Positions 7,859 to 29,194 of a stretch of 64,000 nt of DNA are shown here, one piece after another. The notes under the pieces were generated by a model. That model worked only from the letters and a program-made list of their open reading frames with translations, was not told the origin of the DNA and made no database searches. The translations under genes and the position numbers were made by a program. This stretch comes from a virus: positions 1-64,000 of IMG/VR virus record IMGVR_UViG_3300032287_001974; one strand, written 5' to 3'. Positions within the stretch are counted from its first letter, which is position 1. Every line of letters starts with the position of its first letter.

Positions 7859-8608
7859 GTGCCTGACGTTTATAGAAGCAAGGTTAAGGTAGGCGGTGTT
7901 TGGTATACCGTTTCCGCTACTTATGTAAAAGTAGCCGGTACTTGGAGAACAGCCACAGGTGTCTACTCTAAAGTAAATGGGGCCTGGGTAACTGCTTACC
8001 CCTATCCTCTTTCTGCCGATACTTCTTTAACTAACCTTAGAGTTAATGGTGTACTGGTCGGTAATGGCGGCACATTTAACGCGGCCACGGGCACAACTTC
8101 AGTATCCATCTCTGCTACCATCGCAGCCGGAGCTACTGCTACTGGCTTAGGTACTGTGTCAGTTGCCTACGCAAACAACCCAAATACCAAGAGCATTGTA
8201 GTAACCGCTGAAAACGGGTCTACCACCGCTACTTATACGGTTAACATCGCAGTAGGAGCTCCTCCGACAGTCACTGTGTACTACAAGTACTGTACTAGCT
8301 CGTCCTCTACGGCGATCACTTCAGGTAGCTACACAGACACTACAACCACAAGTGCAAGCACGGCTTGCGCTAATCGCTACGCACAACTGGGCTATCCATA
8401 CACTTGGCAATGTGGCGCTACCGTCCCCGCTGATCCCGACTGTCTAGCCACTTGTACTTCATGCTGTCAAGATACCGGAACGTTCACCTGTGCCCCCTAC
8501 GGCGTTGGAAGAGTTAGGTACATTTTCCCTCAGTACGACCCCTGCTGCGGCAGAACCTGTCCCGACCGAGTTTACTACGTAGACAACGCGCCTTGCATAG
8601 GCGAGTAG
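7859..8608 (+). CDS. Fibre/spike protein: KVxGxW repeats, cadherin-like beta-sandwich, 12-Cys C-terminal domain
   Basis: KVGGVW/KVAGTW/KVNGAW; SADTSLTNL...IVVTAENGSTTATYTVNI; AAGGAG RBS with GTG start. Confidence 0.7.
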   Translation: MPDVYRSKVKVGGVWYTVSATYVKVAGTWRTATGVYSKVNGAWVTAYPYPLSADTSLTNLRVNGVLVGNGGTFNAATGTTSVSISATIAAGATATGLGTVSVAYANNPNTKSIVVTAENGSTTATYTVNIAVGAPPTVTVYYKYCTSSSSTAITSGSYTDTTTTSASTACANRYAQLGYPYTWQCGATVPADPDCLATCTSCCQDTGTFTCAPYGVGRVRYIFPQYDPCCGRTCPDRVYYVDNAPCIGE

Positions 8609-8629
8609 TTAAAGCTGTATACTTTTACT

Positions 8630-8992
8630 ATGTTTGAAAAAGTAAAGGCAATAGTAGAAATAAAGGTTGGCGATGACCTTGTACAGGCCATTTATATAAC
8701 TGACCTTGACAAAGCCCGCCACTGGCTAATTATTGCCGAGAACCCTGTGCTTATAGTTGAGGTCACAGGTATGGCCTGGGAACCTGCACGCGGCGCTCGC
8801 TGGACCGGCACAGAATTTGAATCGGTGACGCACCACCTACTTCTCCCAGATATGCTGTATTTTGCTTTTGTGGTGGACGGTGTATGTGTGTATGTTGAGT
8901 TGCTAGACCCCTCTTTCACAGAAAAAGCGGCCGTTGCTGCGGCTTATAGAACCGGACCGAGTTTTGAGGTGCACTATGGTCGACCTGAGTGA
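8630..8992 (+). CDS. Putative fibre chaperone, copy 1
   Basis: GARWTGTEF motif; leaderless start 6 nt after TATACT; modules shared with 22350..22739. Confidence 0.55.
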   Translation: MFEKVKAIVEIKVGDDLVQAIYITDLDKARHWLIIAENPVLIVEVTGMAWEPARGARWTGTEFESVTHHLLLPDMLYFAFVVDGVCVYVELLDPSFTEKAAVAAAYRTGPSFEVHYGRPE

Positions 8993-9260
8993 GTGGGAAA
9001 AGTACAAGGCTAACCCCGAAGAGTATTCTAAATCGCTTGTGGAGTCTAGAGCGGGCGAAGTAAGCAAAGAATCTAGGCCCTGGGACTTCCTTAATCCCCA
9101 CACTGAATACGTCTCTAAAGAAGAGGCGGCTATCCGCTTAGACATCTGTAAGTCATGCCCCGAACTTATACAGAGTTTATTGCAGTGTAAAAAGTGCGGC
9201 TGCTTTATGAAAGCCAAAACTATGATTAAGCATTCTGAGTGTCCGCTGCATAAATGGTAA
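8976..9260 (+). CDS. Small Cys-rich (DUF6171-like) protein, copy 1
   Basis: RLDICKSCPEL...QCKKCGCFMKAKT...CPLHKW; ATG at 8976 has a GAGGT RBS. Confidence 0.75.
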   Translation: MVDLSEWEKYKANPEEYSKSLVESRAGEVSKESRPWDFLNPHTEYVSKEEAAIRLDICKSCPELIQSLLQCKKCGCFMKAKTMIKHSECPLHKW

Positions 9261-17578: not shown

Positions 17579-17591
17579 TAGTACCCCGATT

Positions 17592-17623
17592 AGTGGGGGG
17601 TCAGAAATGGCCCCCCACTTTTC
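17592..17623 (+). terminator. Intrinsic terminator
   Basis: AGTGGGGGG/CCCCCCACT stem followed by TTT. Confidence 0.75.
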
Positions 17624-17657
17624 ACCCCCCATCAGTTACTAATCAGGAGAATACCCC

Positions 17658-18026
17658 GTGGCTACACAAAAAAAGGCAACCGACTTTACAGGACGTCAGC
17701 GCGACAAGCTTGCGCAAGAAAATCTAGAGGCTATGCAGGAACGCGCTACTGAAATGGCGCTTGCTACTGCAGAAGCAGCTTTCAAGGTTGAGAACGAAAT
17801 TCTCGACGCAACCAAGCCAAACCTAGTTGAGACTATCGTAGTAGACGACATCACAACTACAGGCGCAAGCGGCAAGACTGTCGTAATCCGAGTCGCAGAG
17901 GACATCGAATCGATGACCCTAGGCGCTGGCAATTACTACACTTTTAAGGCTGGTCAGAAGTACGAAGTGACCCCAGAGGTCGCAGCTCACCTAGAGCAAA
18001 AGGGCTACCTAGCTACTCGTTACTAG
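17658..18026 (+). CDS. Head-associated hypothetical protein
   Basis: AGGAG RBS with GTG start. Confidence 0.7.
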   Translation: MATQKKATDFTGRQRDKLAQENLEAMQERATEMALATAEAAFKVENEILDATKPNLVETIVVDDITTTGASGKTVVIRVAEDIESMTLGAGNYYTFKAGQKYEVTPEVAAHLEQKGYLATRY

Positions 18027-18070
18027 ACACAGCTTCCTACGACTCAGCGGGCCTAGTGCCCGCTGTTTCG

Positions 18071-18105
18071 TTTATCCAGACTTTTCCTTACATTTAAGGC
18101 ACCAT
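18071..18105 (+). promoter_or_regulatory. Putative late promoter TTTATCCAG-N20-CACCAT
   Basis: Repeated motif directly after the terminator at 18045-18070. Confidence 0.55.
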
Positions 18106-18135
18106 AGTTATAGTGAATCCGTTAGGGGCTATTAA

Positions 18136-19200
18136 ATGGCAACTCTCTTAGACCTAGTGGCTAAGGTAAGAACTGAACTGAACGACCAGCCTCGTCAGTT
18201 CACTAAGTCGTTCACGGGGGACGGCGCAACTAAAGACTTTGTTCTTGGTTATAAGCCAATCGATGCCAACACTCTTTTAGTTACCTCGGGTAACACAACC
18301 CTTACCAACCCAACAACCTACACAGTTGAGGCCGGGATTGGTGTCGTTCACACTGTAACCGCTCCAGCATCTAACGTAGTTCTTAAGGTAGTTGGTAGCG
18401 TTTACCGATACTTCTCTGATGCCGAAATTGAGTATTTTGTAAATACTGCTGTAACTCAGCACACCTTTAACCGCACAGACGGCTACGGTCGGCAGATGAA
18501 CATTAGCATGTTGCCAGAGGTCGAGGTCTATCCAATAACGATCTTGTCTACAATAGAGGCCCTATACGCCCTGGCAACAGACGCTTCTTTTGATATTGAC
18601 ATCCAAGCTCCAGACGGTGTCACAATCCCGCGAGCGCAGCGATACAGCCAGCTCATGGGCCTAATTGCTCAACGCCAGGAACAGTACCGCAACATTTGTT
18701 CCGCCCTTAACATCGGCCTCTGGCGTATCGAAATCGGCGTTCTGCGCCGCGTCAGCAGGACAACAAACAAGCTTGTGCCTGTTTACATGCCGCAAGAGGT
18801 TGATGACGCTAGAAAGCCGGAGAGGGTCTATTTGCAGAACGACCTTACTGGTCGCAGCCCGCTACCTACTACCGTAGGAATCTACGACCTAGTTATTGAA
18901 GAAGGCGACAACTTCTCTGTAGTCTTGGACTTCCCTGACGACACTAACTTTAACGACCTAGTTTGGAAAGCCCAGATCCGTACTTACCCAGGCTCCCCTA
19001 CTTTGTGGGCAACTATGACCACTGCCGTTAATAACTCAACGCTAAAGAAGCTCACTATCTCCTTAACTAAGGAACAGACTAAATATCTGCCAGTTCGTTG
19101 CTCATGGGACATCCAGGCCACATCAATTGCTGACCCTACACAAACTCGTACTTACCTTCGTGGTCAGGTGTTTGTAAACAAGCAGGTGACTGTAGACTAA
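18136..19200 (+). CDS. Head-to-tail adaptor/neck protein
   Basis: LVAKVRTELND...YFSDAEIEYF adaptor motifs with an inserted beta-domain and a C-terminal Ig-like domain. Confidence 0.7.
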   Translation: MATLLDLVAKVRTELNDQPRQFTKSFTGDGATKDFVLGYKPIDANTLLVTSGNTTLTNPTTYTVEAGIGVVHTVTAPASNVVLKVVGSVYRYFSDAEIEYFVNTAVTQHTFNRTDGYGRQMNISMLPEVEVYPITILSTIEALYALATDASFDIDIQAPDGVTIPRAQRYSQLMGLIAQRQEQYRNICSALNIGLWRIEIGVLRRVSRTTNKLVPVYMPQEVDDARKPERVYLQNDLTGRSPLPTTVGIYDLVIEEGDNFSVVLDFPDDTNFNDLVWKAQIRTYPGSPTLWATMTTAVNNSTLKKLTISLTKEQTKYLPVRCSWDIQATSIADPTQTRTYLRGQVFVNKQVTVD

Positions 19201-19553
19201 TGGTAGACACAATCATTGTAACTCCGGCTGCCCCCGTCACTGTAGGGGTGTACTCCGGACAGCCTGGCCCCCCAGGAGCTACTGGTGCTACTGGTGCTAC
19301 TGGTGCTACTGGTCCTGCTGGACCACAAGGACCTGCGGGAATTAATGGAACTACACAGGTTATCGCATACACCCATACGCAAAATGCGGTATCCTCTACT
19401 TGGAGCATTACACATAATCTGAGTTTCAAACCTAACGTCTCAACTACGGATTCCTCCGGATTCGGTATGGAGGGAACAGTTAGCTACACGAGCGCTACCA
19501 CTCTAACTATTGAATTTGGCTTCGGCACAACCGGATTTGCGTATCTATCTTAG
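19200..19553 (+). CDS. Collagen-like fibre protein
   Basis: GQPGPPGATGATGATGATGPAGPQGPAG followed by a YTHTQ...WSITHNL domain. Confidence 0.8.
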   Translation: MVDTIIVTPAAPVTVGVYSGQPGPPGATGATGATGATGPAGPQGPAGINGTTQVIAYTHTQNAVSSTWSITHNLSFKPNVSTTDSSGFGMEGTVSYTSATTLTIEFGFGTTGFAYLS

Positions 19554-19561
19554 GAAAGTAA

Positions 19562-21250
19562 ATGGCCCGTAATTTTTATACCCCAATCAACCTGAATGGT
19601 CTTGAACTTCAAGACGCTGCGGTAGGTAACCTATCGACTACGTCGATCAACGCCATAACTTCGGGAACTGGTCGTATCCAGTATGACTCCACCCTAAACG
19701 TCCTTAAGTACCGCGATAACTCGGGCTGGCAGACTATCTCTACCGGTGGCGGCTCGTTTACCCTCGGTAGCACTAGCATTTCGCTAGGTGGCACAGTTAC
19801 CACAGTTGCAGGTCTTACTCTTTCAGGCCCTACATTTAGCGGCACTATTACTACGCCGCTTACCACTGCTGGTTATGTAACCAATAACGGCAGCGGTGTT
19901 CTAGGGTCTGTAACCACAATCCCTAACGCTGGCCTTACTAACTCAACTATTTCTGGCGTTTCTCTGGGTGGCACCCTAGGTGCTCTTAGCCTAGGAACCG
20001 GCCTTTCTTACGACGCTGGCACTACCTACACAGGTGGCACAGCCCGTACACTAAGCGTTGCTACTGGCTCTACTTCGACTGCTGGTATTGTCTCCCTAAC
20101 TGACTCTACTTCGTCTACAAGCACTACGACTGCCGCTACCCCAAACAGCGTTAAGTCTGCATACGACTTGGCTAATGCTGCCCTACCAAAAGCTGGTGGC
20201 ACCATGTCTGGTGCTATCGCTATGGGCAGCAGCAAGATTACGGGTCTTGGAACCCCTACTGCGTCAGATGATGCGGCTACTAAAGCTTACGTTGACAACG
20301 TGTCTCAGGGCCTTAATGTGCACGATGCTGTTAACTATGCAACTACCGCTGCTCTAGGCACTACCGGTAACCTTGTCGGTGGAACTATTACTACCACTTA
20401 CGCAAACGGAACTAGCGGCGAGGGCGCGACCCTTACTATTGCTACTTCGTCTAACTGGACAGCAATCACAATTGACGGCCAGTCGCTCACTGTTACCAAC
20501 CGTGTGCTTATTAAGAACCAGTCATCCGCCCTACAGAATGGTATTTATACCGTAACCTCTGTGGGTGCTGTGGGAAATACCACTTCGTTTGTGTTTACCC
20601 GTGCAACAGACAACGATCAGGTCCCAGAACTCGAAGCCGGTGACCTAACTTACGTAATTGCGGGTACTGCAAACGGCGGTAACGGATACGTCCAGACCGC
20701 TGTAGTAACCACAGTTGGTAGCTCGTCGGTTACTTGGTCTCAGTTCTCTGGTTCATCTACCACTCTTGCAGGTGCTGGTCTTACTCCTAACGGAACTAAC
20801 CCTAACCAAATTGACGTCGGCTCTACAACACTTACCGTAACCTCAAACGCCGTCGATCTTGCAACTGTTACTCCAAGCAACTCTGGTTCGGCAAGCGCCG
20901 CTACTATCGTAGATGACATAACAGTTGACAGCTACGGTCGCGTAACTGGTGTGACTTACACGTCTGTCCCGTTCACCGCCCTGGGTACCACTACCTCTAC
21001 TGCCACAGCTACAGCCGCTTCTGGAACGATTACCTCTGCTCGCCGCGTAACCGGCGTAGGTATTGGTACTGGTACAGCAATGGTTGTAAACCACGGCCTT
21101 GGTCAATGGGTACACGCCCAGATCTTTGACACTAGCGGTAACCTAGTTGAAACTGACGTATTAAACGCCTCTACCAACAGCGGAACTACGACATTTACAT
21201 TTGCTTCTTCGCAGACCTTGACTGGATTCCAGTACGTTATTGTAGGTTAG
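19562..21250 (+). CDS. Tail/neck fibre protein
   Basis: Fibre repeat STAGIVSLTDST...AATPNSVKSAYD; ITGLGTPTASDDAATKAYVD; RVLIKNQS...NGIY. Confidence 0.85.
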   Translation: MARNFYTPINLNGLELQDAAVGNLSTTSINAITSGTGRIQYDSTLNVLKYRDNSGWQTISTGGGSFTLGSTSISLGGTVTTVAGLTLSGPTFSGTITTPLTTAGYVTNNGSGVLGSVTTIPNAGLTNSTISGVSLGGTLGALSLGTGLSYDAGTTYTGGTARTLSVATGSTSTAGIVSLTDSTSSTSTTTAATPNSVKSAYDLANAALPKAGGTMSGAIAMGSSKITGLGTPTASDDAATKAYVDNVSQGLNVHDAVNYATTAALGTTGNLVGGTITTTYANGTSGEGATLTIATSSNWTAITIDGQSLTVTNRVLIKNQSSALQNGIYTVTSVGAVGNTTSFVFTRATDNDQVPELEAGDLTYVIAGTANGGNGYVQTAVVTTVGSSSVTWSQFSGSSTTLAGAGLTPNGTNPNQIDVGSTTLTVTSNAVDLATVTPSNSGSASAATIVDDITVDSYGRVTGVTYTSVPFTALGTTTSTATATAASGTITSARRVTGVGIGTGTAMVVNHGLGQWVHAQIFDTSGNLVETDVLNASTNSGTTTFTFASSQTLTGFQYVIVG

Positions 21251-21259
21251 ACTTAACCT

Positions 21260-21796
21260 ATGGCAAGGACTATATATACGGACCTTACGGCCACTGGTCG
21301 TACATTTACCGCCGCTACCTTCTCAGGTAACCTTTCTGGAACCATAAACAGCATTACTATCTCCGGCACATCTAGCACAACCATGACGCTGCCTTCTACT
21401 ACGGCAACTATTGCTAGAACTGACGCGGCTCAGACCTTTACAGGAGTGCAGACGTTTAATGGAAACGTCATTTACCACATTGCTACAAACGCCCAAACCG
21501 CGTCCTACACCCTTGTTTTAGCGGATGATGGAAAAATAGTTGAAGTCAGCAACGCATCTGCTAACACCGTGACTATTCCATTGAACTCCGCGGTTGCTTT
21601 TCCTGTAGGAACTCAAATTACCGTTATTCAAACAGGCGCTGGACAGACAAGCTTTGCAGTTACTGCTGGTGTGACTCTTAACGCTACCCCACAAGCAACC
21701 GCAAACACCGCAAAGCTTCGTGCCCAATGGTCCTCAGTAACCCTACTCAAGCGTGACACAAATATTTGGGTTGCCATGGGCGATTTGACGTTCTAA
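21260..21796 (+). CDS. Fibre-associated protein
   Basis: SYTLVLADDGK...FPVGTQITVIQ...LRAQWSSVTLLK...W...GDL domain. Confidence 0.7.
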   Translation: MARTIYTDLTATGRTFTAATFSGNLSGTINSITISGTSSTTMTLPSTTATIARTDAAQTFTGVQTFNGNVIYHIATNAQTASYTLVLADDGKIVEVSNASANTVTIPLNSAVAFPVGTQITVIQTGAGQTSFAVTAGVTLNATPQATANTAKLRAQWSSVTLLKRDTNIWVAMGDLTF

Positions 21797-22332
21797 TGGC
21801 TATAAGTGGCGGTATTGCCGCGGGAGCAGGGAAAGAGCCTGACAGGCCTACGTCTGTGTCAGCCACGGCCGGTAATGCCTCAGCAACCGTCTCCTTTACA
21901 GCTTCCACCCATAAGGGCAAAGGAAACTCAATTGCTACGTATGTAGCTACCTCTTCCCCTACAGGAATAACTGGCACTAGCTCAACTTCACCAGTTACTG
22001 TTAACGCTCTGTCTAACGGTACTGCCTATACTTTTACTGTTGTAGCCAATGCAACCTACGGGGCTTCAACTATAACTAGTGCGGCATCAGTTGCAAGCAA
22101 CTCTGTTACCCCAGTAGCCCCAACTACCACTACTACCACTACTACCACGACAACTACAACCACCACAACCACCACAACCACTGCGGGAACTACCGCAGCC
22201 CCTAACTACAAACGTTGTACTTCTGCCCAAGTTTCTGTGGGTTGTTGTACGAGCACAAGCTGCTGTGTCGTAGGTGGTGGCGGTGTTTCTTGTGCTACCC
22301 CATCTTGTGGTGGTACGCTAACTTGTTTCTAA
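21796..22332 (+). CDS. Fibre-tip protein: FN3 domain, poly-Thr linker, 8-Cys C-terminal knot
   Basis: PDRPTSVSATAGNASATVSF...LSNGTAYTFTVVA FN3; 20 Thr codons; TAATG overlap places the start at 21796. Confidence 0.8.
   Translation: MAISGGIAAGAGKEPDRPTSVSATAGNASATVSFTASTHKGKGNSIATYVATSSPTGITGTSSTSPVTVNALSNGTAYTFTVVANATYGASTITSAASVASNSVTPVAPTTTTTTTTTTTTTTTTTTTTAGTTAAPNYKRCTSAQVSVGCCTSTSCCVVGGGGVSCATPSCGGTLTCF
22123..22182 (+). repeat. ACN x20 poly-threonine tract
   Basis: 20 consecutive Thr codons with mixed third positions. Confidence 0.9.
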
Positions 22333-22349
22333 GATGTTAGGATTTATAT

Positions 22350-22739
22350 ATGCTTACTGATGCTGATCTAGAGTTTGTGCACCAAGGCACTAATGGGGTT
22401 GCACTAGTTTGGGTTATTGACGAACAGTGCCTCTATGATTTGCCGCTATCTGTAGAGCACGCGTTTATCTTTCAAGAAGCGGACGAGGTGCTGGACGTAT
22501 CGGAAGACTACTCAGACCACGACGGCATTACAGTGGAGTTCCGTAAAAATGGCGTGACCCTAGAAACCCTGCAGACAGGTGAGTACTTCGGCAGTATTTT
22601 GCTAAGTAACCCTTTGGTATTAGACCTGCATCAGTACCCTTACGGACTGTACGTAAGCTCCCCAGACGCACTATTCCAAAACGGTGAGTTTGTTATACTT
22701 GACCACGACGTAACAGGAGAGGACCCTTTCTATGAGTAA
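22350..22739 (+). CDS. Putative fibre chaperone, copy 2
   Basis: Modules shared with 8630..8992; leaderless start 6 nt after TGTTAGGAT. Confidence 0.55.
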   Translation: MLTDADLEFVHQGTNGVALVWVIDEQCLYDLPLSVEHAFIFQEADEVLDVSEDYSDHDGITVEFRKNGVTLETLQTGEYFGSILLSNPLVLDLHQYPYGLYVSSPDALFQNGEFVILDHDVTGEDPFYE

Positions 22740-22962
22740 GAGTCGCTGGGAGCAGTACAAAGAAAAAAATGGCGTTACTCCTCTAGATTTGTTAAACCCT
22801 AAAACCATAAAAATTGATCTCACTGCCGCAACCGCGCGAATGGATATCTGTAAAAGTTGTCCAGAACTTATAGGTCTTACCCACCAGTGCAAAAAGTGTG
22901 GGTGCTTCATGGACGTTAAAACTAAGCTAGAGGCGGCTAAATGCCCTCTCGGCAAGTGGTAG
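22732..22962 (+). CDS. Small Cys-rich (DUF6171-like) protein, copy 2
   Basis: RMDICKSCPEL...QCKKCGCFMDVKT...CPLGKW. Confidence 0.8.
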   Translation: MSKSRWEQYKEKNGVTPLDLLNPKTIKIDLTAATARMDICKSCPELIGLTHQCKKCGCFMDVKTKLEAAKCPLGKW

Positions 22963-24008
22963 CGACTACTCGCTGGGACGAGTATAAAAAGAAGCACGGC
23001 GTTACGTCGCCTCTTAAGTACCCAATTGCAATGGCGCAGATTGACCCTAATGGGCTCTGCAACGTTGGCTGTTGGTTTTGCCCTGTAGGCTACGCGCCTA
23101 ACCCCGAAGTAGGCAAAAAGAACATGCCCATAGAGGTTCTTGACAGCATCCTTAAGCAGCTACACGAGGGCAAAGGTAGTTTTGTTTCTCGCGGCTTTGA
23201 TTTTATATACACCGCTCATTACAACGAGGTCCTGCTGTACAGGCACTTTGAAGAGATGTTGGCCCTCTTTCGAAAGTACGGGTTTAAAACAATGATCCTT
23301 ACTAATGGGACCCCCCTTACCCCGGCTAAGACAGACATCATAAAACAGTACCCTGATGTCGTATATGGTATTTGCTTTAATACTCCCTCAGCAAACCAAG
23401 AACGCTGGTCCAAGGCTGTAGGAATGAACGAAAAGATATTTGCCAAGCTTCTTTCTAATATTAGCTACGCTATCGAACAACTCCCTGAGATGTTTGAGAC
23501 CAAGCGCCTATCGATCCAAGTAAACGGCCTCAATAAAATGTCGTTGTTTGAGTATGGTGGTTGGATAGATAAACTACAGAACGCTCCAGAAATAGACCTA
23601 GACCCAGAAACGGGCTCCCTTGCTACAGAGGTTGCTGAATTTGAATCCCTATTCCCAGGCATGCAGGTGTACGGTATGCCAAGCCTTATTGATCGAGCAG
23701 GGCACCTAGACAAACATGGGGTTATAACTAACGCTCGTGCTATTGAGTCCTACAGCAAGGGCGACAAGACTCGTGTAGTGGGCTGTGGCAACGGCAAGGA
23801 GGTCGGCGGTAGACCTAATGGGTGGCTGCACGTAAACGCTAATGGTGACGTATTTATCTGCTGTAACGATTATGACTTTGAAAGTACATTTGCTAACGTT
23901 GCAGATAAGCCTTTAAAGGATATCTGGCACGGCTCAGAGCACACCACTATGATACAGCAAGCCTACGACACTATATGTAGGACCTGCTCAGCTGCAATTT
24001 GGGAGTAA
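22956..24008 (+). CDS. Radical SAM protein with SPASM/Twitch domain
   Basis: CNVGCWFC (CxxxCxxC); YNEVLL; LTNGT; C...WLHVNANGDVFICCND...KDIW...CRTC; start is GTG 22956 or ATG 22941. Confidence 0.9.
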   Translation: MVATTRWDEYKKKHGVTSPLKYPIAMAQIDPNGLCNVGCWFCPVGYAPNPEVGKKNMPIEVLDSILKQLHEGKGSFVSRGFDFIYTAHYNEVLLYRHFEEMLALFRKYGFKTMILTNGTPLTPAKTDIIKQYPDVVYGICFNTPSANQERWSKAVGMNEKIFAKLLSNISYAIEQLPEMFETKRLSIQVNGLNKMSLFEYGGWIDKLQNAPEIDLDPETGSLATEVAEFESLFPGMQVYGMPSLIDRAGHLDKHGVITNARAIESYSKGDKTRVVGCGNGKEVGGRPNGWLHVNANGDVFICCNDYDFESTFANVADKPLKDIWHGSEHTTMIQQAYDTICRTCSAAIWE

Positions 24009-24009
24009 C

Positions 24010-24981
24010 GTGGCAAGCATATTTATTCAACTAGCTTCATACCACGACTATGAGCTCCCCGGCACTATCTTAAACGCGCTAGAGATGTCATCGGGTAATC
24101 ACCAGATTAACTTTGGGGTTCACCACAACTACTACGAAGTAGACGATATCTTGATTCCAAATATCTCTAACGTAAAGGCCACTATAAGCAAGGCCCCCCA
24201 CAATCTAGGTATGGGCATTAGCAGAGAGATAGCGCATAACTTCTACTGCGGTGAAGACTACTATATGCAAGTAGATGCTCACACTAGGTTCAGAGAGAAC
24301 TGGGACAATAACTACATAGTCGAGATTGATTACTACAGGTCATTAGGGTTTGAGAAGCCGCTGCTGACAACCTATCCCAGAAACTACTGGTACACAGACG
24401 GCAAGATGGAGCACGATGAGGGCTGGGCAATCAGCTGCATTAGCTTTGAGGAAGATAAAGAACGGTTTGCAACCTTAAGGGTTCCTTCTCAAATGGCCTG
24501 GAGCAACCCCAAGGGAAACGTATTTAGTCGGTCCGTGTCGGGCGGCTCCATATTTACTGTAGGGCCCTTCTTTGTCCCCAACAGGCGCACACACTCAGTT
24601 GGTGAAGAGATTTTAATAGCTGCAAGGGCTTATACCCACGGGTATGACTTGCTCGTACCGAGACAGAACCAGTTGTCTCACCTTTATTACGACCACACTA
24701 AGGCGGGCGTAAACGGGCGACGTTTGGTTTGGCAAGACTTTCCTGAGAAGTCAAGTGACTTTGAAAAAATAGGGCTTGAGGAGGTTCAGTCCATATTTAA
24801 AAACAATGTCATAGGCGACCAAGGGTTTGGTACTGAACGAACTCTAGAAGAGTTTGAGGTGTTTGCTGGGTTGGATTTTGCCTCGGGAGCAGTAATTGCT
24901 AGGGAGGACGCCGGGGTTGAGACCAGACTCGCTGAGCTTTCTTGCCCAGTAGGGTTTTGGAACCCACTCTTGCGTCAATAG
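24010..24981 (+). CDS. GT60-like polypeptide N-acetylglucosaminyltransferase
   Basis: SIFIQLASYHD, SR...Y.GEDYYMQVDAHTRF..NWD (DxH), GEEI...ARAYTHGYDL, HLYY and G..RTL.EF..F.G.DF motifs of the Gnt1/GlcNAc family. Confidence 0.8.
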   Translation: MASIFIQLASYHDYELPGTILNALEMSSGNHQINFGVHHNYYEVDDILIPNISNVKATISKAPHNLGMGISREIAHNFYCGEDYYMQVDAHTRFRENWDNNYIVEIDYYRSLGFEKPLLTTYPRNYWYTDGKMEHDEGWAISCISFEEDKERFATLRVPSQMAWSNPKGNVFSRSVSGGSIFTVGPFFVPNRRTHSVGEEILIAARAYTHGYDLLVPRQNQLSHLYYDHTKAGVNGRRLVWQDFPEKSSDFEKIGLEEVQSIFKNNVIGDQGFGTERTLEEFEVFAGLDFASGAVIAREDAGVETRLAELSCPVGFWNPLLRQ

Positions 24982-25018
24982 CCCTGATTTTTTTGGCAAT
25001 ATGCGAGACACTATAAGT

Positions 25019-25110
25019 GATCAATAGACTTACCTGGTAGCAGGTAGGAACAAAAAATACCCGACAAGGTACTAGGGTAAAGCCCCCAGCAGAGGTGACT
25101 GGGGGCTTTA
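25019..25110 (+). ncRNA. Candidate ~90-nt structured sRNA
   Basis: Late-type promoter (-10 GACACT at 25007-25012), two hairpins and a terminator stem, no real ORF. Confidence 0.35.
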
Positions 25111-25166
25111 CTAATTAATTACCCGACAAAGATAACAAAATACCAGTATACTAAAAAAAGGTAATC

Positions 25167-25757
25167 ATGAGAGCACATACACCTGGCGGTAGATTTGATG
25201 CGGACTTTGAGTCCGATCGTATCAGTGAGGGAATCACTGAGGATTTAGCCAATCCCGCAGGTAACTCAGCGGACTGGTGGAAGTTCGACTCCGTGAACAA
25301 CAAGGTAGACCCTATCTATGACGTAGAACCTATCGGCACCGGAAGAACCTGGACCGGCCCGAGCGTTCTTCGAGTTATCCGCTCTACTATTACTGAGGGT
25401 TCTAACCCACTTAACCCACGTGGTTTCTACAACACAGACACGTTGCACCTTACAGTCAACATTGATGACATGTACGATGTAAGTTCAGAGCTATTCTTTG
25501 ATCGCTCTAAAATTAAACCGGCCCTTGACCTTGCAAACAAATACCGCGTTGTGTGGAAAGGGCAAGTTTACCGCCCAATCCGAACTCAACCAGCGGGCCT
25601 AGTGGCTACCCGCCACACCCTAATCGTTATTGATCTTATACAGCTAGCTCCGGATGAGCTAGTCAATGACAGTCAGTTCCTTGACTACGCTGCACCTGGC
25701 GTAGTGGGAATAGGCTATGGTAATGCACCATTCGGAAACAACCCTTACGGAGATTAA
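25167..25757 (+). CDS. Head closure/neck protein
   Basis: Position; DPIYD, GFYNTDTLHLT and RVVWKGQVYRP motifs. Confidence 0.6.
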   Translation: MRAHTPGGRFDADFESDRISEGITEDLANPAGNSADWWKFDSVNNKVDPIYDVEPIGTGRTWTGPSVLRVIRSTITEGSNPLNPRGFYNTDTLHLTVNIDDMYDVSSELFFDRSKIKPALDLANKYRVVWKGQVYRPIRTQPAGLVATRHTLIVIDLIQLAPDELVNDSQFLDYAAPGVVGIGYGNAPFGNNPYGD

Positions 25758-25979
25758 ATGCCAGTTCCAAATAAACCTGTAGTTGGAGAAACCAACTGGG
25801 GAGACAAACTTAATACTGCTCTGGACTACTTAGATAATAAAGTAGGTCCTTGGGTAGCCGTTCCTGCAACTGCTACTTCCACCGGCACTGCCGGTCAGAT
25901 AGCCTATGCTTCTGGATTTTTGTACGTATGCGTTGCTACTAACACCTGGCGTAGAACCGCCCTAACCACCTGGAGTTAA
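25758..25979 (+). CDS. Small structural protein
   Basis: WGDKLN...PATATSTGTAGQIAY...YVCVATNTWRR fibre-type motif. Confidence 0.65.
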   Translation: MPVPNKPVVGETNWGDKLNTALDYLDNKVGPWVAVPATATSTGTAGQIAYASGFLYVCVATNTWRRTALTTWS

Positions 25980-25982
25980 CCC

Positions 25983-26222
25983 ATGGCTAAAGTAAGAACT
26001 AAAGACGGCGTCGGGCACGTAGTCACTAAAAAGAAGTCTGACAAAGGTATTGGCAAGAAGGGCGACATTATTGTTGACCACACCGCCACCTCAAAAGGCA
26101 AGTACGACAAGATGAACTTGACCAAAGTAGCTAAGGCTAAAACTGTTAAAGAAGGCGTTGCTGGAACTCGTAAGTGGCACGCAGAGAACCCCCAGAAGAA
26201 AGCGAAGAAGAATGGCAAGTAA
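25983..26222 (+). CDS. Small Lys-rich basic protein
   Basis: Composition; coupled to the next gene. Confidence 0.7.
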   Translation: MAKVRTKDGVGHVVTKKKSDKGIGKKGDIIVDHTATSKGKYDKMNLTKVAKAKTVKEGVAGTRKWHAENPQKKAKKNGK

Positions 26223-26388
26223 GAAGCCGGTCTGGGAAAAGCCAGACCCTACTAAAAAAGACAAGCCGCTCAGCAAAGGCCAAAAGTCCTCTGCTAAAGC
26301 TAAGGCTAAGGCTGCTGGTCGTCCGTACCCTAATTTGATTGATAACATGGCTGCTGCCAAGAAGGCGAAGAAGAAAAATGGCAAGTGA
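26212..26388 (+). CDS. Small Lys-rich basic protein
   Basis: MASKKPVWEKP...AGRPYPNLIDNM; start at ATG 26212. Confidence 0.7.
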   Translation: MASKKPVWEKPDPTKKDKPLSKGQKSSAKAKAKAAGRPYPNLIDNMAAAKKAKKKNGK

Positions 26389-26695
26389 AGCTTGGCAGAA
26401 AAAATCTGGCAAAAATGCTAAAGGCGGCCTGAATGAAAAAGGCCGCAAGTCTTATGAGAGGGCTAACCCTGGCTCAGACCTAAAAGCCCCAGTAAAGTCT
26501 GGCGACAACCCTCGCCGCGCTTCGTTCCTAGCTCGAATGGGTGGAAACCCAGGCCCAGAACGTAAGCCCAACGGAGACCCTACCCGCCTGTTGCTATCGC
26601 TACAGGCGTGGGGAGCATCATCCAAAGCTGACGCTAAAAAGAAAGCAGCCGCCATGTCTAAGCGTCTCGACAACAAGAAGAAAGGCACTAAGTAA
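26378..26695 (+). CDS. Basic phage protein (DUF6321-like)
   Basis: AWQKKSGKNAKGGLNEKGRKSY...LKAPVK...RRASFLARM. Confidence 0.7.
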   Translation: MASEAWQKKSGKNAKGGLNEKGRKSYERANPGSDLKAPVKSGDNPRRASFLARMGGNPGPERKPNGDPTRLLLSLQAWGASSKADAKKKAAAMSKRLDNKKKGTK

Positions 26696-26919
26696 TGCCA
26701 CTAGCACCAAAGGGCTCTAAGAGCTCAATCAACAAGCAGTCAAACGCTGCTCCTAAGTACGCACCAAACAACCCTGTAGACCGCCAAGCAAAGAAGGCGT
26801 TGTCCAAGGGATCTGTGGCTAAGGGTGGTACAATTAAAGCTCCAGGCGAGATCATTGCCATGGCATCTGATAAGACGCGTAACAAAGCAAACGCCATCTC
26901 ACAGAAAAGAAATAAGTAA
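26695..26919 (+). CDS. Small basic protein
   Basis: TAATG coupling. Confidence 0.65.
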   Translation: MPLAPKGSKSSINKQSNAAPKYAPNNPVDRQAKKALSKGSVAKGGTIKAPGEIIAMASDKTRNKANAISQKRNK

Positions 26920-26984
26920 TGTCTGATTGCAAGTGCGGCAACTGCGGTTGCGGAAAGAAGGACCCTAATGGCCCTAGTTCATAA
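26919..26984 (+). CDS. 21 aa Cys-rich micropeptide (not in track)
   Basis: MSDCKCGNCGCGKKDPNGPSS; TAATG coupling. Confidence 0.45.
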   Translation: MSDCKCGNCGCGKKDPNGPSS

Positions 26985-27264
26985 CTCATATACCCTAGCG
27001 GCAACAACGCCTACCGCTATTGCTACCATCCCGTTGAACAACCCTAGAACCTCAGTTGTTGTTACTAACGTGGACACCGCCTCGGTATACCTTGGCGATT
27101 CTTCTGTTTCTACAGGAGCTAACGTAGACCGCGGAATTAGGGTTGCTACCAACACCAACCAGGAAATCTGGCTAAATGGTGGCGAGACCCTATATGCCGT
27201 TTCTCTAGCCGGAACCGCAGCCTACGCAGTTGCAGTTCTATACTCAACCGTTATCCCAGCGTAA
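26968..27264 (+). CDS. Small beta-rich structural protein
   Basis: R.SVVVTN....VYLG....G......LYAV pattern. Confidence 0.65.
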   Translation: MALVHNSYTLAATTPTAIATIPLNNPRTSVVVTNVDTASVYLGDSSVSTGANVDRGIRVATNTNQEIWLNGGETLYAVSLAGTAAYAVAVLYSTVIPA

Positions 27265-27273
27265 GGAACGTAA

Positions 27274-27573
27274 ATGAATAAGAAACCAGCGTACGAAAAA
27301 GGCAAGTACACCGAGGCCAAGGACGAGAAGAAGGACGCGGCAATGCTTAAGAAACGCGGCCTAACCTCTAAGTCTGACAAGTCTGAGTGGAAGAAGAAAG
27401 ACGACGCCCACGCCGCTAAGAAGAAGCCAAAGACTATGGCTGAAGACAAGAAGATTGACGCCAAGATGATGAACTCTATGGCTGCCAAGAAGCACTCTGC
27501 TCATGAGAAGGCTGAAGGCAAAAAAGGCGAAAAACTCGAAAACAGGATGGAAAAGAAGCCAGGCCGTAAGTAA
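27274..27573 (+). CDS. Lys/Glu-rich protein
   Basis: AAGGA RBS. Confidence 0.7.
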   Translation: MNKKPAYEKGKYTEAKDEKKDAAMLKKRGLTSKSDKSEWKKKDDAHAAKKKPKTMAEDKKIDAKMMNSMAAKKHSAHEKAEGKKGEKLENRMEKKPGRK

Positions 27574-27575
27574 CA

Positions 27576-27944
27576 ATGGCTAAAACCGACAAGGAACTTA
27601 GGCAGGTTAAGAAAGACTCTGCCACCTCTGCGCGCGTACTGCGCGTCAAGGTCCCTCAGCAACCTGGTTACAACGGCGTTGTTACCAAAAAAGAGGGTAA
27701 GAAGACGGTAAGCACTAACGCCGTAAGGGCTGTTAAGCGAACCGACGACCGCCTTGCGGACAACAGCGCTAAAGGCTTTGACCAGTCTCCTCGCGATAAG
27801 CAGTTATACAAGGCTATCGGCGCTGGTAGAAGTCAGCAGTTTAAGTCTGACTTGGAGCGCTCGCGGGTTGGAAAGCTAGAACGCGGGGTTGACATGCCAA
27901 GGAAAGGCATTGTAGGAGCACCCAAGGGCTCCGGCACAGTTTAA
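27576..27944 (+). CDS. Basic hypothetical protein
   Basis: ORF followed by a terminator at 27958-27984. Confidence 0.65.
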   Translation: MAKTDKELRQVKKDSATSARVLRVKVPQQPGYNGVVTKKEGKKTVSTNAVRAVKRTDDRLADNSAKGFDQSPRDKQLYKAIGAGRSQQFKSDLERSRVGKLERGVDMPRKGIVGAPKGSGTV

Positions 27945-28057
27945 ATATAAAAGGTTTAGCCCTGCGAAAGCGGGGCTTTTCTTTTATCCTGTAAGTGGCC
28001 CTATGCGGGGGCTGCACCAAACTTGCGCTGTACCTTGCTTATTTAATGGAGACACTC

Positions 28058-28225
28058 ATGTCTAGCCTTGACAGAGACCAACACAGATCGGTCTCACAAT
28101 TTTCCGAGATGGATTTCATCCGCGGAATGGCTGACAGCGCTACTAAGGGCCACGGCACAGCAAACTTGCTGGCGGGTCTAGCAATAGGGTTTCTAGTAAA
28201 TAAAGCAGTACGGTGGTACAAGTAG
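28058..28225 (+). CDS. Small protein with C-terminal hydrophobic helix
   Basis: GGAG RBS before ATG 28058. Confidence 0.55.
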   Translation: MSSLDRDQHRSVSQFSEMDFIRGMADSATKGHGTANLLAGLAIGFLVNKAVRWYK

Positions 28226-28551
28226 TGGCGACAACTTTTAAAGATACCGCAGCCAACTCACTTAAGACTCTCCAGTCATCTTTGACTAAGGAGATACAGT
28301 CTGACGCCCTATCTGCCGGGTGGCCTAAAATGTACGCTAACTCGCTAAGTGTTCGAATCGATAAATCAAACATTTATATCGATTACCCAGAACAGCTAGC
28401 TCAAGACATCGAGGACTTGGAGTACGGGTCTGAGTCTCAGCCGCCTAAGCCGATCTTGCGCCTATTCATAGACCGCCACTCAGAGGACTTTCAAAACATT
28501 TTTGCCGAGTCCTCGGTCAACTATCTATTTGATTCGGGGGTACTTCCTTGA
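28213..28551 (+). CDS. Neck/tail completion protein
   Basis: LEYGSE.QPPKPILR motif (HK97 gp10-like); alternative start at GTG 28225. Confidence 0.6.
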   Translation: MVQVVATTFKDTAANSLKTLQSSLTKEIQSDALSAGWPKMYANSLSVRIDKSNIYIDYPEQLAQDIEDLEYGSESQPPKPILRLFIDRHSEDFQNIFAESSVNYLFDSGVLP

Positions 28552-29159: not shown

Positions 29160-29194
29160 TATACCGCTACCTCTAACTATCAAGGAGAAAACTA

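What the first reader, a model, noticed from the sequence alone, without database searches (positions are those of the whole stretch)
21796..24981. Candidate RiPP-like maturation system for a virion fibre: Cys-knot/poly-Thr substrate, chaperone, Cys protein, radical SAM/SPASM and GT60 O-GlcNAc transferase
Seen: within the fibre gene block, an FN3 protein ends in a 20-Thr linker and an 8-Cys peptide (NYKRCTSAQVSVGCCTSTSCCVVGGGGVSCATPSCGGTLTCF). It is followed directly by a putative chaperone, a CxxC/CxxCGC protein, a radical SAM enzyme with a SPASM/Twitch domain, and a GT60-like transferase. Established: SPASM radical SAM enzymes install thioether or C-C crosslinks in Cys-rich peptides (sactipeptides, ranthipeptides), and GT60 enzymes transfer GlcNAc to Thr/Ser/Hyp of polypeptides, including mucin-like tracts. 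Inference: the phage builds a crosslinked or disulfide-knotted fibre tip on a glycosylated mucin-like stalk. This would be peptide-natural-product chemistry applied to a structural protein, possibly for receptor binding or for shielding from proteases and grazers.
Basis: partly seen in the sequence, partly recalled or inferred. Interest (0 to 1): 0.9.

Follow-up and report, generated by a model that had tools for sequence, protein, structure and literature searches.

The report
Phage fibre tether glycosylation cassette
A phage encodes a fibre-like protein with a poly-threonine tether and a small cysteine-knot tip, followed by two tip-associated helper proteins and an enzyme pair (a BtrN-like radical SAM enzyme and a GT60 sugar transferase). 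Comparison with about 140 related loci ties that pair to sugar-coating of the tether, not to RiPP-style cross-linking of the cysteines.

Summary
Five co-directional genes at 21796-24981 encode an FN3 / 20-Thr / 8-Cys protein, an acidic 129-aa protein, a DUF6171 protein, a radical SAM enzyme and a PF11397 (GT60) transferase. The linkage is conserved in IMG/VR phage contigs, but it splits into two separable modules.

**Module 1: Cys tip, ~130-aa protein, DUF6171.** It often stands alone with no enzyme nearby. The window holds a second copy at 7859-9260. Tips have even Cys counts (4/6/8/10), as expected for disulfide pairing.

**Module 2: linker-modifying enzymes.** The gene set varies: GT60 alone, 2OG/P4H-like oxygenases, or rSAM-GT60 with or without a GalE-like SDR. 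Its presence tracks a Thr/Pro-rich linker (69/71 loci with a linker against 11/25 without).

**The rSAM.**
- It has one auxiliary cluster (Twitch), not a full SPASM.
- Its only significant PDB sequence relative is BtrN (profile E 2e-12).
- It sits beside GT60 in 39/42 loci.
- It is not enriched at Cys tips (35/42 against 46/54).
- It is fused to GT60 or GT2 domains in bacterial and metagenomic proteins.

The mucin-like glycosylation reading is supported. The RiPP-like Cys cross-linking reading is not. No biochemistry exists. The rSAM-glycosyltransferase pairing appears undescribed.

The parts
21796..22332 (+). Fibre-like substrate protein (178 aa). FN3-like domain at residues 17-92, 20-Thr tether at residues 110-129 (22123-22182), 8-Cys C-terminal tip at residues 130-178 (22183-22329).
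   Evidence: ORF and translation. fn3 at E 1.2e-4, below the cut-off. Over 500 IMG/VR relatives of the FN3 part. Tips of the same Cys pattern recur in related loci.
22350..22739 (+). Acidic 129-aa protein ('acid129'). It is the tip-associated partner placed between tip and DUF6171. A chaperone role is inferred from position only.
   Evidence: No family. Conserved between tip gene and DUF6171 in most loci (alignment A2). AF2 model at pLDDT 91 with a duplicated beta-beta-alpha-beta unit. No significant fold match.
22732..22962 (+). DUF6171 protein (76 aa) with six invariant Cys (C-x2-C-x9-C-x2-C-x-C-x12-C), a conserved N-terminal W-x-x-Y-K...P-x-D motif and an invariant C-terminal K-W.
   Evidence: PF19668 above its cut-off and phrog_13558. 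Alignment A3. At least 593 IMG/VR loci.
22941..24008 (+). Radical SAM enzyme of the Twitch type. The CxxxCxxC cluster is C40/C44/C47; one auxiliary cluster is formed by C282, C307/C308, C346 and C349. An N-terminal extension (residues ~10-24, 22968-23012) mimics the DUF6171 N-terminal motif.
   Evidence: Pfam. Alignment A1 invariants. BtrN is the only PDB sequence match. AF2 model plus Foldseek and VIA. GT fusions. N-terminal motif in nearest relatives.
24010..24981 (+). GT60-like polypeptide HexNAc transferase (323 aa) with an invariant D89-x-H91 motif. It starts 1 nt after the rSAM stop codon.
   Evidence: PF11397 at E 4e-31 and phrog_24687 at E 7.5e-30. Alignment A4. Adjacent to the rSAM in 39/42 unique loci.
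7859..8608 (+). Second Cys-tipped protein (249 aa). Weak cadherin-like domain, 12-Cys C-terminal region, no Thr/Pro linker.
   Evidence: Cadherin-like at E 2e-3, below the cut-off..
8630..8992 (+). Second tip-associated 120-aa protein, in the same position as acid129.
   Evidence: No family.
8976..9260 (+). Second DUF6171 gene. No enzyme gene follows it.
   Evidence: PF19668 at E 4.7e-9 at 9132-9257. Aligned in A3. ORF list.

Best explanation
The block consists of two separable modules that act on different parts of one fibre-like protein.

**Module 1 (21796-22962).** This is a small display unit. A variable anchor domain (here FN3) carries a ~45-residue, disulfide-paired Cys-knot tip, which I infer to be an adhesin or receptor-binding tip. 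Two dedicated partners travel with the tip wherever it occurs: the 129-aa protein and DUF6171, probably a metal-binding assembly or folding factor.

**Module 2 (22941-24981).** This is a tether-modification unit. The GT60 enzyme transfers a HexNAc, by family GlcNAc, onto the hydroxyls of the poly-Thr linker and turns it into a stiff, protease-resistant, mucin-like stalk. The Twitch radical SAM enzyme works in the same step series as the transferase. Most likely it is a BtrN/DesII-like oxidising or tailoring enzyme acting on the sugar, either the nucleotide sugar or the peptide-bound sugar. It does not act as a cross-linker of the cysteines.

**Shown:** gene content, domain families, Cys-ligand pattern, co-occurrence statistics and fusions.

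**Inferred:** virion location, the acceptor residues, the sugar, the rSAM reaction, and the roles of the 129-aa protein and DUF6171.
For: 1. **The modules separate in nature.**
   - Many DUF6171-sampled loci carry tip, ~130-aa protein and DUF6171 with no enzyme within 3.7-5.2 kb downstream: L142, L144, L145, L149, L150, L152, L155.
   - The window's second triad at 7859-9260 has no linker and no enzyme.
   - L060 has a poly-Thr linker, a PASTA end with 0 Cys and no DUF6171, yet keeps rSAM-GT60.
2. **Enzymes track the linker (96 unique loci).**
   - Linker against any enzyme: 69/71 against 11/25.
   - T-rich linker against GT60: 26/29 against 24/67.
   - P-rich linker against 2OG oxygenase: 31/37 against 12/59.
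   - The window's only T/P tract lies about 760 bp upstream of the rSAM.
3. **The rSAM tracks glycosyl chemistry.**
   - GT60 is adjacent in 39/42 loci.
   - A GalE-like SDR is present in 26/42 rSAM loci against 1/54 loci without the rSAM.
   - Family members are fused to GT60 (P0134, P0148, P0187), to GT2 in both orders (P0204, P0228, P0144), and to the L050-type upstream protein (P0121). All keep the same 8 Cys.
   - The GT60-rSAM fusion is full length in 12 Syntrophorhabdaceae/Deltaproteobacteria genomes.
4. **Enzyme type.**
   - Only 5 C-terminal Cys are invariant, which fits one auxiliary cluster.
   - BtrN is the only significant PDB sequence match: E 2e-7 with the single sequence, 2.3e-12 with the profile, against 1e-2 for the next hit.
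   - BtrN tops VIA-align at Z 16.2, rmsd 3.1, 220/246 residues aligned. DesII, BtrN and BlsE rank among the best Foldseek hits.
5. **The tips look disulfide-paired.** 76 of 81 unique tips have an even Cys count, and the 5 odd ones are boundary artefacts. The same tip family occurs with and without the rSAM.
6. **GT60 identity.** PF11397 at E 4e-31 and an invariant D-x-H. Characterised GT60 enzymes glycosylate Thr/Ser or Hyp of polypeptides (established knowledge: Dictyostelium/Toxoplasma Gnt1, T. cruzi pp-alphaGlcNAcT).
Against: - No biochemical or proteomic data exist for any member.
- Virion incorporation of the 21796 protein is inferred only from its place among fibre-like genes between the capsid and sheath genes.
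- The co-occurrence counts are not corrected for phylogeny, and the two locus sets were sampled by rSAM and by DUF6171.
- Structural comparison alone does not separate sugar-acting from peptide-acting rSAMs. ChlB, SkfB, SuiB and anSME lie within 1 Z of BtrN.
- A sub-clade of the rSAM, including this one, carries an N-terminal peptide resembling the DUF6171 N-terminus. That hints at docking on the same partner as the tip machinery.
- This genome lacks the SDR and the 2OG genes, so the sugar-tailoring idea rests here on rSAM plus GT60 alone.
- 35/42 rSAM loci do have a Cys tip, so action on the tip cannot be excluded by genomics.
Confidence: 0.6

Rival explanations
1. RiPP-like reading. The radical SAM enzyme installs thioether or C-C cross-links in the 8-Cys tip, with DUF6171 and the 129-aa protein acting as recognition or chaperone partners. 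GT60 decorates the stalk independently.
For: - 35/42 rSAM loci have a Cys tip directly upstream.
- DUF6171 overlaps the rSAM start, and the rSAM N-terminus copies the DUF6171 W-x-x-Y-K motif.
- RiPP maturases (SkfB, SuiB, CteB, ChlB) score within 1 Z of the best structural match.
- SkfB shows that a Twitch enzyme can make a thioether (established knowledge).
Against: - Cys tips are equally frequent without the rSAM (46/54; OR 0.87, p = 1).
- Most tip/DUF6171 triads have no rSAM, including the second one in this genome.
- The same 8-Cys tip family occurs with GT60 only (L162) or with no enzyme at all (L142-type).
- All tips have even Cys counts.
- L060 keeps rSAM-GT60 without any Cys tip.
- There is no RRE domain, and the full two-cluster SPASM motif is absent.
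- No peptide maturase is significant by sequence; YydG/EpeE reaches only E 1e-2 against 2e-12 for BtrN.
- The family is fused to glycosyltransferases, not to peptide-binding domains.
Confidence: 0.08
2. The rSAM acts on the linker polypeptide itself rather than on the sugar. One option is L-to-D epimerisation, as in YydG/EpeE. Another is an O2-independent oxidation or hydroxylation of Thr/Pro that creates or alters the acceptor for GT60, which would make it an anaerobic counterpart of the P4H-Gnt1 pair.
For: - The rSAM goes with the linker (39/42 against 32/54) and with GT60 (39/42).
- GT60-rSAM fusions occur in strictly anaerobic Syntrophorhabdaceae, where an O2-dependent P4H could not work.
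- YydG/EpeE is the second-best PDB sequence hit.
- anSME, a relative of BtrN, oxidises Ser/Cys side chains in proteins (established knowledge).
Against: - 14 or more rSAM loci also carry 2OG oxygenases, so the rSAM does not simply replace them.
- T-rich linkers with GT60 alone are common, for example L162, L186, L191 and L207. The rSAM is therefore not needed to make the acceptor.
- The strong link to a GalE-like nucleotide-sugar enzyme (26/42 against 1/54) points to sugar metabolism.
- The YydG match is weak (E 1e-2) and covers only the rSAM core.
Confidence: 0.17
3. The rSAM-GT60 pair does not modify the fibre at all. It acts on a host or target-cell molecule such as an envelope glycan or a protein, as a takeover or effector function. 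Its place next to fibre genes is then incidental, or reflects delivery with the virion.
For: - In Syntrophorhabdaceae the GT60-rSAM fusion sits directly after DUF2169 / pentapeptide / DUF3540 / Tox-PAAR-like genes. That is the position usually held by a T6SS cargo effector.
- PHROG files the GT under 'moron, auxiliary metabolic gene and host takeover'.
Against: - Presence of the enzymes follows the presence and composition of the linker in the neighbouring fibre-like gene.
- The enzymes lie inside the late structural block, between the capsid and sheath genes.
- The window's only T/P tract is next to them.
Confidence: 0.1

Closest known systems
BtrN (2-deoxy-scyllo-inosamine dehydrogenase; Twitch radical SAM), with the other sugar-acting rSAMs DesII and BlsE
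   Same: CxxxCxxC cluster near the N-terminus and no RRE domain. There is a single auxiliary-cluster motif: three of BtrN's four ligands align exactly and the fourth lies within 5 residues. BtrN is the only significant PDB sequence match (E 2.3e-12) and the top VIA match (Z 16.2, 220/246 aligned).
   Different: Identity is only 17%. This enzyme is about 90 residues longer, with an insert at about residues 200-280. It is phage-encoded and coupled to a polypeptide glycosyltransferase rather than to an aminoglycoside pathway. Its substrate and reaction are unknown.
Skp1 prolyl-hydroxylation/glycosylation (PhyA P4H + Gnt1, GT60) and the GT60 polypeptide alpha-GlcNAc transferases that build Thr-rich mucins in T. 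cruzi and Dictyostelium
   Same: A GT60-family transferase (PF11397, D-x-H motif) lies next to a Thr tract. In sister loci a P4H-like 2OG oxygenase plus GT60 lies next to (TP)n or Pro-rich linkers.
   Different: The setting is a bacteriophage. The substrates are fibre-like proteins with long tethers, not one Pro in Skp1. An extra radical SAM partner is present. Sugar and linkage are untested.
Virion glycosylation in mycobacteriophages (Che8, Rita; Freeman et al. 2023, as cited in PMC11256854)
   Same: Phage-encoded glycosyltransferases are thought to decorate the phage's own structural proteins.
   Different: In those phages the capsid and tail-tube subunits are glycosylated by other GT families. 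Here a dedicated Thr/Pro tether of a fibre-like protein is the likely acceptor, and the enzymes include GT60, P4H-like oxygenases and an rSAM. No experiment has been done.
Sactipeptide/ranthipeptide maturases (AlbA, CteB, SkfB, PapB) and other SPASM RiPP enzymes
   Same: The radical SAM fold with a C-terminal Fe-S domain, and a Cys-rich peptide encoded nearby.
   Different: No RRE domain and no leader peptide. There is one auxiliary cluster, not two. No significant sequence match. There is no specific co-occurrence with the Cys tip. The family is fused to glycosyltransferases.
Cellulase architecture: a small cystine-stabilised CBM1 on an O-glycosylated Thr/Pro ('PT-box') linker. Analogy from my own knowledge, not tested.
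   Same: A 25-50-residue disulfide-rich end module is joined to a larger domain by a (TP)n or poly-Thr linker, which in those enzymes is O-glycosylated and protease-protected.
   Different: No sequence or fold match of the tips to CBM1 or any Pfam family. The binding target is unknown.

Membership tests
Radical SAM superfamily (PF04055) | CxxxCxxC motif that ligates the SAM-binding [4Fe-4S] cluster | tested here: met
   C40-x3-C44-x2-C47 is invariant in 17 relatives. PF04055 at E 2.6e-9, above its cut-off.
SPASM subfamily (two auxiliary clusters) | Seven-Cys motif Cx9-15Gx4C...Cx2Cx5Cx3C...C that ligates two auxiliary [4Fe-4S] clusters | tested here: not met
   Only C282, C307, C308, C346 and C349 are conserved in the C-terminal domain. 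The Cx2Cx5Cx3C block is reduced to Cx2C at the very C-terminus. The Pfam SPASM model still matches (E 5.7e-11) because Twitch is a truncated SPASM.
Twitch radical SAM enzymes (BtrN-like) | A single auxiliary cluster ligated by C...C...CxxC in a shortened SPASM fold | tested here: met
   The profile alignment to BtrN covers both domains (E 2.3e-12). C307, C346 and C349 align with BtrN's cluster Cys, and C282 lies 5 residues from the fourth. VIA Z 16.2 over 220/246 residues. Cluster content itself is not testable here.
RiPP radical SAM maturases (sacti-/ranthipeptide type) | RRE (PqqD-like) leader-recognition domain, or a separate RRE protein | tested here: not met
   The rSAM core begins at about residue 30 here and about residue 10 in most relatives. 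There is no N-terminal domain. Neither neighbouring protein matched a PqqD/RRE family.
RiPP radical SAM maturases (sacti-/ranthipeptide type) | Specific genomic coupling of the enzyme to its Cys-rich precursor peptide | tested here: not met
   A Cys tip is present at 35/42 rSAM loci and at 46/54 loci without the rSAM (OR 0.87). L060, L050, L055 and L058 have the rSAM without a Cys tip.
GT60 (CAZy) / PF11397 polypeptide GlcNAc transferases | Sequence membership above the curated threshold, plus a GT-A metal-binding D-x-H/D motif | tested here: met
   PF11397 at E 4e-31, 109 bits against a cut-off of 21. D89-x-H91, W98 and D99 are invariant in 17 sequences.
GT60 (CAZy) / PF11397 polypeptide GlcNAc transferases | UDP-GlcNAc donor and a Thr/Ser/Hyp polypeptide acceptor | not testable with these tools
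   Only indirect evidence: T-rich linker against GT60, 26/29 against 24/67. A GalE-like SDR in sister loci leaves the donor open between GlcNAc and GalNAc, or Glc and Gal.
DUF6171 (PF19668) | Match above the gathering score, plus a conserved Cys core | tested here: met
   31.1 bits against a cut-off of 27. The second copy scores 33.2 bits. Six invariant Cys in A3.
Fibronectin type III (PF00041) | Match above the gathering score | tested here: inconclusive
   22.7 bits against a cut-off of 25. The related L060 protein reaches E 6.6e-12.
Phage tail-fibre assembly chaperones (Tfa/gp38-type) | Sequence or fold similarity to a known fibre chaperone | tested here: inconclusive
   No Pfam, PHROG or NCBIfam match. 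The best VIA rows are the Pam3 fibre (Z 5.1) and the Mu fibre chaperone (Z 3.4), both at noise level.

The most novel reading that the evidence does not exclude
A previously undescribed family of Twitch radical SAM enzymes is obligately partnered with polypeptide glycosyltransferases. The two are adjacent in hundreds of phage loci and fused in anaerobic Deltaproteobacteria and other metagenomic proteins. The family would carry out new radical chemistry on protein-linked or nucleotide sugars, or would make the glycosylation acceptor without O2. In phages it would belong to a modular, plant-extensin/mucin-like system that hydroxylates and glycosylates the tethers of knottin-tipped fibres, with DUF6171 as a dedicated factor for the cystine tip.
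Probability: 0.35. Interest if true: 0.85.

Novelty: new variant of a known kind. Interest (0 to 1): 0.72.

Why it matters
If the tether is glycosylated, these abundant environmental phages build mucin- or extensin-like stalks with their own enzymes. That would extend virion glycosylation well beyond the few mycobacteriophage and chlorovirus cases. It would also give a simple, readable code: linker composition predicts the enzyme set.

The rSAM-glycosyltransferase pairing, seen both as neighbours and as fusions, defines an unstudied enzyme family. A specific, testable hypothesis follows from its closest relative, BtrN: oxidation or tailoring of a sugar. The family has members in anaerobic bacteria at T6SS-cargo-like positions.

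The tip / ~130-aa protein / DUF6171 triad gives a first genomic context to a Pfam domain of unknown function for which the paper library returned no paper. It also gives a family of 25-50-residue cystine modules that may be receptor-binding units.

Tried and rejected
- **Complex prediction**, acid129 (A2) + DUF6171 (A3): no verdict (ipSAE 0.30 against a mark of 0.32). I do not use it either way.
I obtained the context of the fusions through the search for related loci in genome contigs instead.
- **INPHARED phages:** no nucleotide match for the block and no tblastn match for the rSAM.
- **The search for related loci with the GT60 protein** and with fusion P0187 in viral contigs returned nothing. 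This is a limit of the pattern step; GT60 relatives were found by tblastn inside the other loci.
- **acid129 fold:** no match in Foldseek PDB or BFVD, and only noise-level rows in VIA wide.
- **Cys tips and second-triad proteins:** Pfam at E up to 1 and the protein atlas gave no usable family.
- **DUF6171 in the atlas:** only other viral DUF6171 clusters.
- **L050 upstream protein (phrog_4417):** only a non-significant PDB hit to a mannosyltransferase (E 0.13). I do not claim it is a GT.
- **Sequencing runs:** one metagenome study holds the stretch and no RNA holder is listed.
- **Promoter/terminator scan** of 21000-25400: at the level expected by chance.
- **Literature:** 'DUF6171' returned 0 papers. 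Searches on radical SAM + SPASM + phage + tail fiber, GT60 + phage, and P4H + cyanophage + glycosyltransferase returned nothing on such a system.
- **DUF6171 as the missing SPASM half or an obligate rSAM partner:** considered and dropped, because about nine in ten DUF6171 loci lack the rSAM. Distant DUF6171 genes in cultured phages (Mendera, syn9) lie among small early genes and tRNAs.

Full report
**1. What is there**

The window is 64 kb of an 85.6-kb, roughly 97%-complete IMG/VR phage record. Between the major capsid gene (16511-17578) and the tail sheath gene (29195-30718) lies a run of fibre-like genes:
- an LtfC-like protein;
- a collagen-like protein;
- a 562-aa Phage_fiber_2 protein;
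- a 178-aa fibre C-terminal-like protein.

The five genes of the finding follow. I confirmed all five at the stated coordinates.

| Coordinates | Product | Evidence |
|---|---|---|
| 21796-22332 | FN3-like domain, exactly 20 consecutive Thr (mixed ACN codons), 8-Cys end | fn3 is just sub-threshold |
| 22350-22739 | acidic 129-aa protein | no family |
| 22732-22962 | DUF6171 | |
| 22941-24008 | radical SAM + SPASM by Pfam | |
| 24010-24981 | PF11397/GT60 | E 4e-31 |

The Thr tract is the only T/P-rich tract in any ORF of 80 aa or more in the whole window.

**2. The linkage is conserved, but as two modules**

I fetched 57 IMG/VR loci with the rSAM as query (41-71% identity). I fetched 80 of at least 593 loci with DUF6171 as query.

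In rSAM loci the order is almost always the same: [variable protein ending in a (TTTTAAP)n, poly-T or (TP)n linker plus a 25-50-residue Cys-rich end] - [~130-aa protein] - DUF6171 - (2OG oxygenase, DUF194-like) - rSAM - GT60 - (GalE-like SDR).

DUF6171-sampled loci show the first three genes again and again, but what follows varies:
- nothing at all;
- GT60 alone;
- one to six P4H-like 2OG oxygenases;
- the rSAM-GT60-SDR set.

The tip can even be a free-standing 66-aa protein, as in L142 and L144. The window itself has a second tip / 120-aa / DUF6171 triad at 7859-9260. That triad has no linker and no enzyme.

The converse case also exists. L060 has a poly-Thr protein that ends in a PASTA domain. 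It has no Cys tip and no DUF6171, yet rSAM-GT60 follows directly.

**3. Counts on 96 unique loci**

| Comparison | With the feature | Without it |
|---|---|---|
| T/P-rich linker against any enzyme gene downstream | 69/71 | 11/25 |
| T-rich linker against GT60 | 26/29 | 24/67 |
| P-rich linker against 2OG oxygenase | 31/37 | 12/59 |
| rSAM against GT60 | 39/42 | 11/54 |
| rSAM against GalE-like SDR | 26/42 | 1/54 |
| rSAM against Cys tip | 35/42 | 46/54 (OR 0.87) |

Most of the 11 'no linker but enzyme' cases are PPFF-type Pro linkers that my filter missed, or truncated upstream genes. These loci are related, and the two sets were sampled through two of the genes. The Fisher p-values are therefore not true probabilities. 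Even so, the pattern recurs across many different anchors, linker types and tip types.

**4. The tips**

Of 81 unique tips, 76 have 4, 6, 8 or 10 Cys. The five odd counts come from my boundary rule: one extra N-terminal Cys in the 66-aa proteins, and one Cys cut off in the 12-Cys tip of the window's second copy.

Strict even parity is what all-paired disulfides require. Thioether links to non-Cys carbons impose no such rule. The window's tip family (C-T-S-x-x-V-S-V-G-C-C...) occurs with the rSAM (L013, L016, L017), with GT60 only (L162) and with no enzyme at all (L142-type). No known family or fold matched the tips.

**5. The radical SAM enzyme**

*Cys pattern.* In 17 relatives the invariant Cys are C40/C44/C47 plus only C282, C307, C308, C346 and C349. 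That is enough for one auxiliary cluster. The domain is a Twitch domain, not the seven-Cys SPASM of sactisynthases.

*Domain layout.* There is no RRE domain.

*Sequence comparison with PDB.* The single sequence hits only BtrN (E 2e-7). The family profile hits BtrN at 2.3e-12 over both domains, and the next hit, YydG/EpeE, reaches only 1e-2.

*Structural comparison.* I used an AF2 model (pLDDT 76.6).
- Foldseek ranks DesII, BtrN, SuiB, CteB and BlsE highest.
- VIA-align puts BtrN first (Z 16.2, rmsd 3.1, 220/246 residues aligned).
- ChlB, SkfB, SuiB, anSME and DesII lie within one Z unit of BtrN.

Structure alone therefore cannot decide between sugar-acting and peptide-acting enzymes. The discriminating signal is the sequence match.

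*Family size.* The family has 475 close homologues, all environmental or 'uncultured Caudovirales'.

**6. Fusions**

A profile search of 1.84 billion representatives found family members fused to glycosyltransferases:
- GT60-rSAM: P0134, P0148, P0187.
- GT2-rSAM: P0204, P0228.
- rSAM-GT2: P0144.
- P0121: a fusion to the same uncharacterised protein that precedes the rSAM in L050, a locus without GT60.

All of them keep the eight Cys. P0148 is not an assembly artefact. It is full length at 63-93% identity in 12 Syntrophorhabdaceae/Deltaproteobacteria genomes.

Adjacency in phages, plus fusions in both orders with two GT families, is the strongest evidence that the rSAM works with a glycosyltransferase.

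In those bacteria the fusion follows DUF2169-pentapeptide, pentapeptide, DUF3540 and Tox-PAAR-like genes. That is a T6SS cargo-like position. I note it as the basis of one rival reading.

**7. GT60, the 129-aa protein and DUF6171**

*GT60.* The GT keeps an invariant D-x-H with W-D nine residues on. That is the metal-binding motif type of the polypeptide HexNAc transferases, on my own knowledge.

*The 129-aa protein.* It folds confidently (pLDDT 91) into a duplicated beta-beta-alpha-beta unit with no significant structural relative. 'Chaperone' remains a guess from position.

*DUF6171.* It is more conserved than the enzymes. It has six invariant Cys, an N-terminal W-x-x-Y-K...P-x-D...N-P motif and an invariant C-terminal K-W. 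More distant DUF6171 genes in cultured phages lie in other contexts:
- next to a P4H in cyanophage Sf-FS3;
- among small early genes in Mendera and syn9.

Only the Cys core is therefore general.

*Shared N-terminal motif.* This rSAM and its nearest relatives (P0002, P0003, P0004, P0007, P0011, P0014, P0024) carry an N-terminal extension with the same W-x-x-Y-K/L motif. It may be a docking peptide shared by DUF6171 and the rSAM. This is the one observation that links the rSAM to the tip machinery.

**8. Reading**

The most economical account is a display protein in three parts: an anchor domain, a tether and a cystine tip.
- The tip comes with its own two factors, the 129-aa protein and DUF6171.
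- The tether comes with enzymes matched to its composition: P4H-like oxygenases for Pro-rich tethers and GT60 for Thr-rich tethers.
- The rSAM, with or without the GalE-like SDR, is an optional tailoring layer on the glycan.

For this phage, which has no SDR and no 2OG gene, I infer that GT60 puts HexNAc on the 20-Thr tract. I also infer that the BtrN-like rSAM modifies that sugar or its donor.

I give this reading 0.6. The rivals get:
- 0.17 for the rSAM acting on the linker peptide;
- 0.10 for a non-virion target;
- 0.08 for the original Cys cross-linking idea.

**9. Novelty**

Virion glycosylation by phage-encoded GTs is known for mycobacteriophages (Freeman et al. 2023, cited in PMC11256854). 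P4H plus GT60 is the eukaryotic Skp1 pathway. I found no paper on DUF6171, on GT60 in phages, or on an rSAM-glycosyltransferase pair or fusion.

I therefore class the block as a new variant of a known kind. The rSAM-GT family is the part most likely to hold new chemistry.

This scan had noted the same stretch, and the second triad, before on this same genome. I used those notes as leads only.

Noticed in passing
window 7859-9260: A second triad: a cadherin-like protein with a 12-Cys end, a 120-aa protein and a DUF6171 protein. It has no Thr/Pro linker and no enzyme gene after it. This is a natural control showing that the tip module is independent of rSAM/GT60.
   Followed up: yes
window 22968-23012 (rSAM residues ~10-24): The rSAM N-terminal extension (R-W-D-E-Y-K-K-K-H-G-V-T-S-P) copies the conserved N-terminal motif of DUF6171 (R-W-E-Q-Y-K-E-K-N-G-V-T-P). 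The nearest rSAM relatives keep a W-x-x-Y-K/L motif, but most family members lack the extension. It may be a shared docking peptide.
   Followed up: partly
L232:1856-9869 (also L224-L235): In Syntrophorhabdaceae/Deltaproteobacteria genomes a 622-aa GT60-rSAM fusion follows DUF2169-pentapeptide, pentapeptide, DUF3540 and Tox-PAAR-like genes, a position typical of T6SS cargo. A conserved 258-aa protein of no family follows it.
   Followed up: partly
L007, L008, L170, L181, L188, L196-L198: Tip proteins with (PPFF)n linkers are followed by four to six tandem P4H-like 2OG oxygenase genes. This is a striking expansion matched to a Pro/Phe-rich tether.
   Followed up: no
L142:910-1110, L144:4385-4585, L145, L149: Free-standing 65-66-aa proteins that consist of little more than the 6-Cys tip. 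They sit directly after a fibre gene and are followed by the ~130-aa protein and DUF6171, with no enzymes.
   Followed up: partly
window 25983-27944: A run of five or six small ORFs that encode very Lys-rich (K/A/G/P) proteins of 73-122 aa, between the cassette and the tail genes. AT skew peaks here (0.29). Their function is unknown; internal or DNA-binding proteins are a guess.
   Followed up: no
window 16511-30718: The fibre-like genes and the cassette lie between the major capsid gene and the tail sheath gene, not in the baseplate region (36-43 kb). The 'fibre' may therefore be a head or neck appendage rather than a tail fibre.
   Followed up: no
L034:5460-6041 and the same gene in many loci ('DUF194'): A ~194-aa protein is often placed between the 2OG oxygenase and the rSAM or GT60. 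It has no Pfam family, and it matches phrog_2954, annotated 'ferrochelatase' (E 1e-15).
   Followed up: no
L052:965-3773: Here the rSAM stands without GT60 and is followed by genes that look like GroEL and GroES, judged by eye from their N-terminal sequences. No tool was used to check this.
   Followed up: no
window 22350-22739: The 129-aa protein's model shows an internal duplication, beta-beta-alpha-beta twice, with no known fold match at pLDDT 91.
   Followed up: partly
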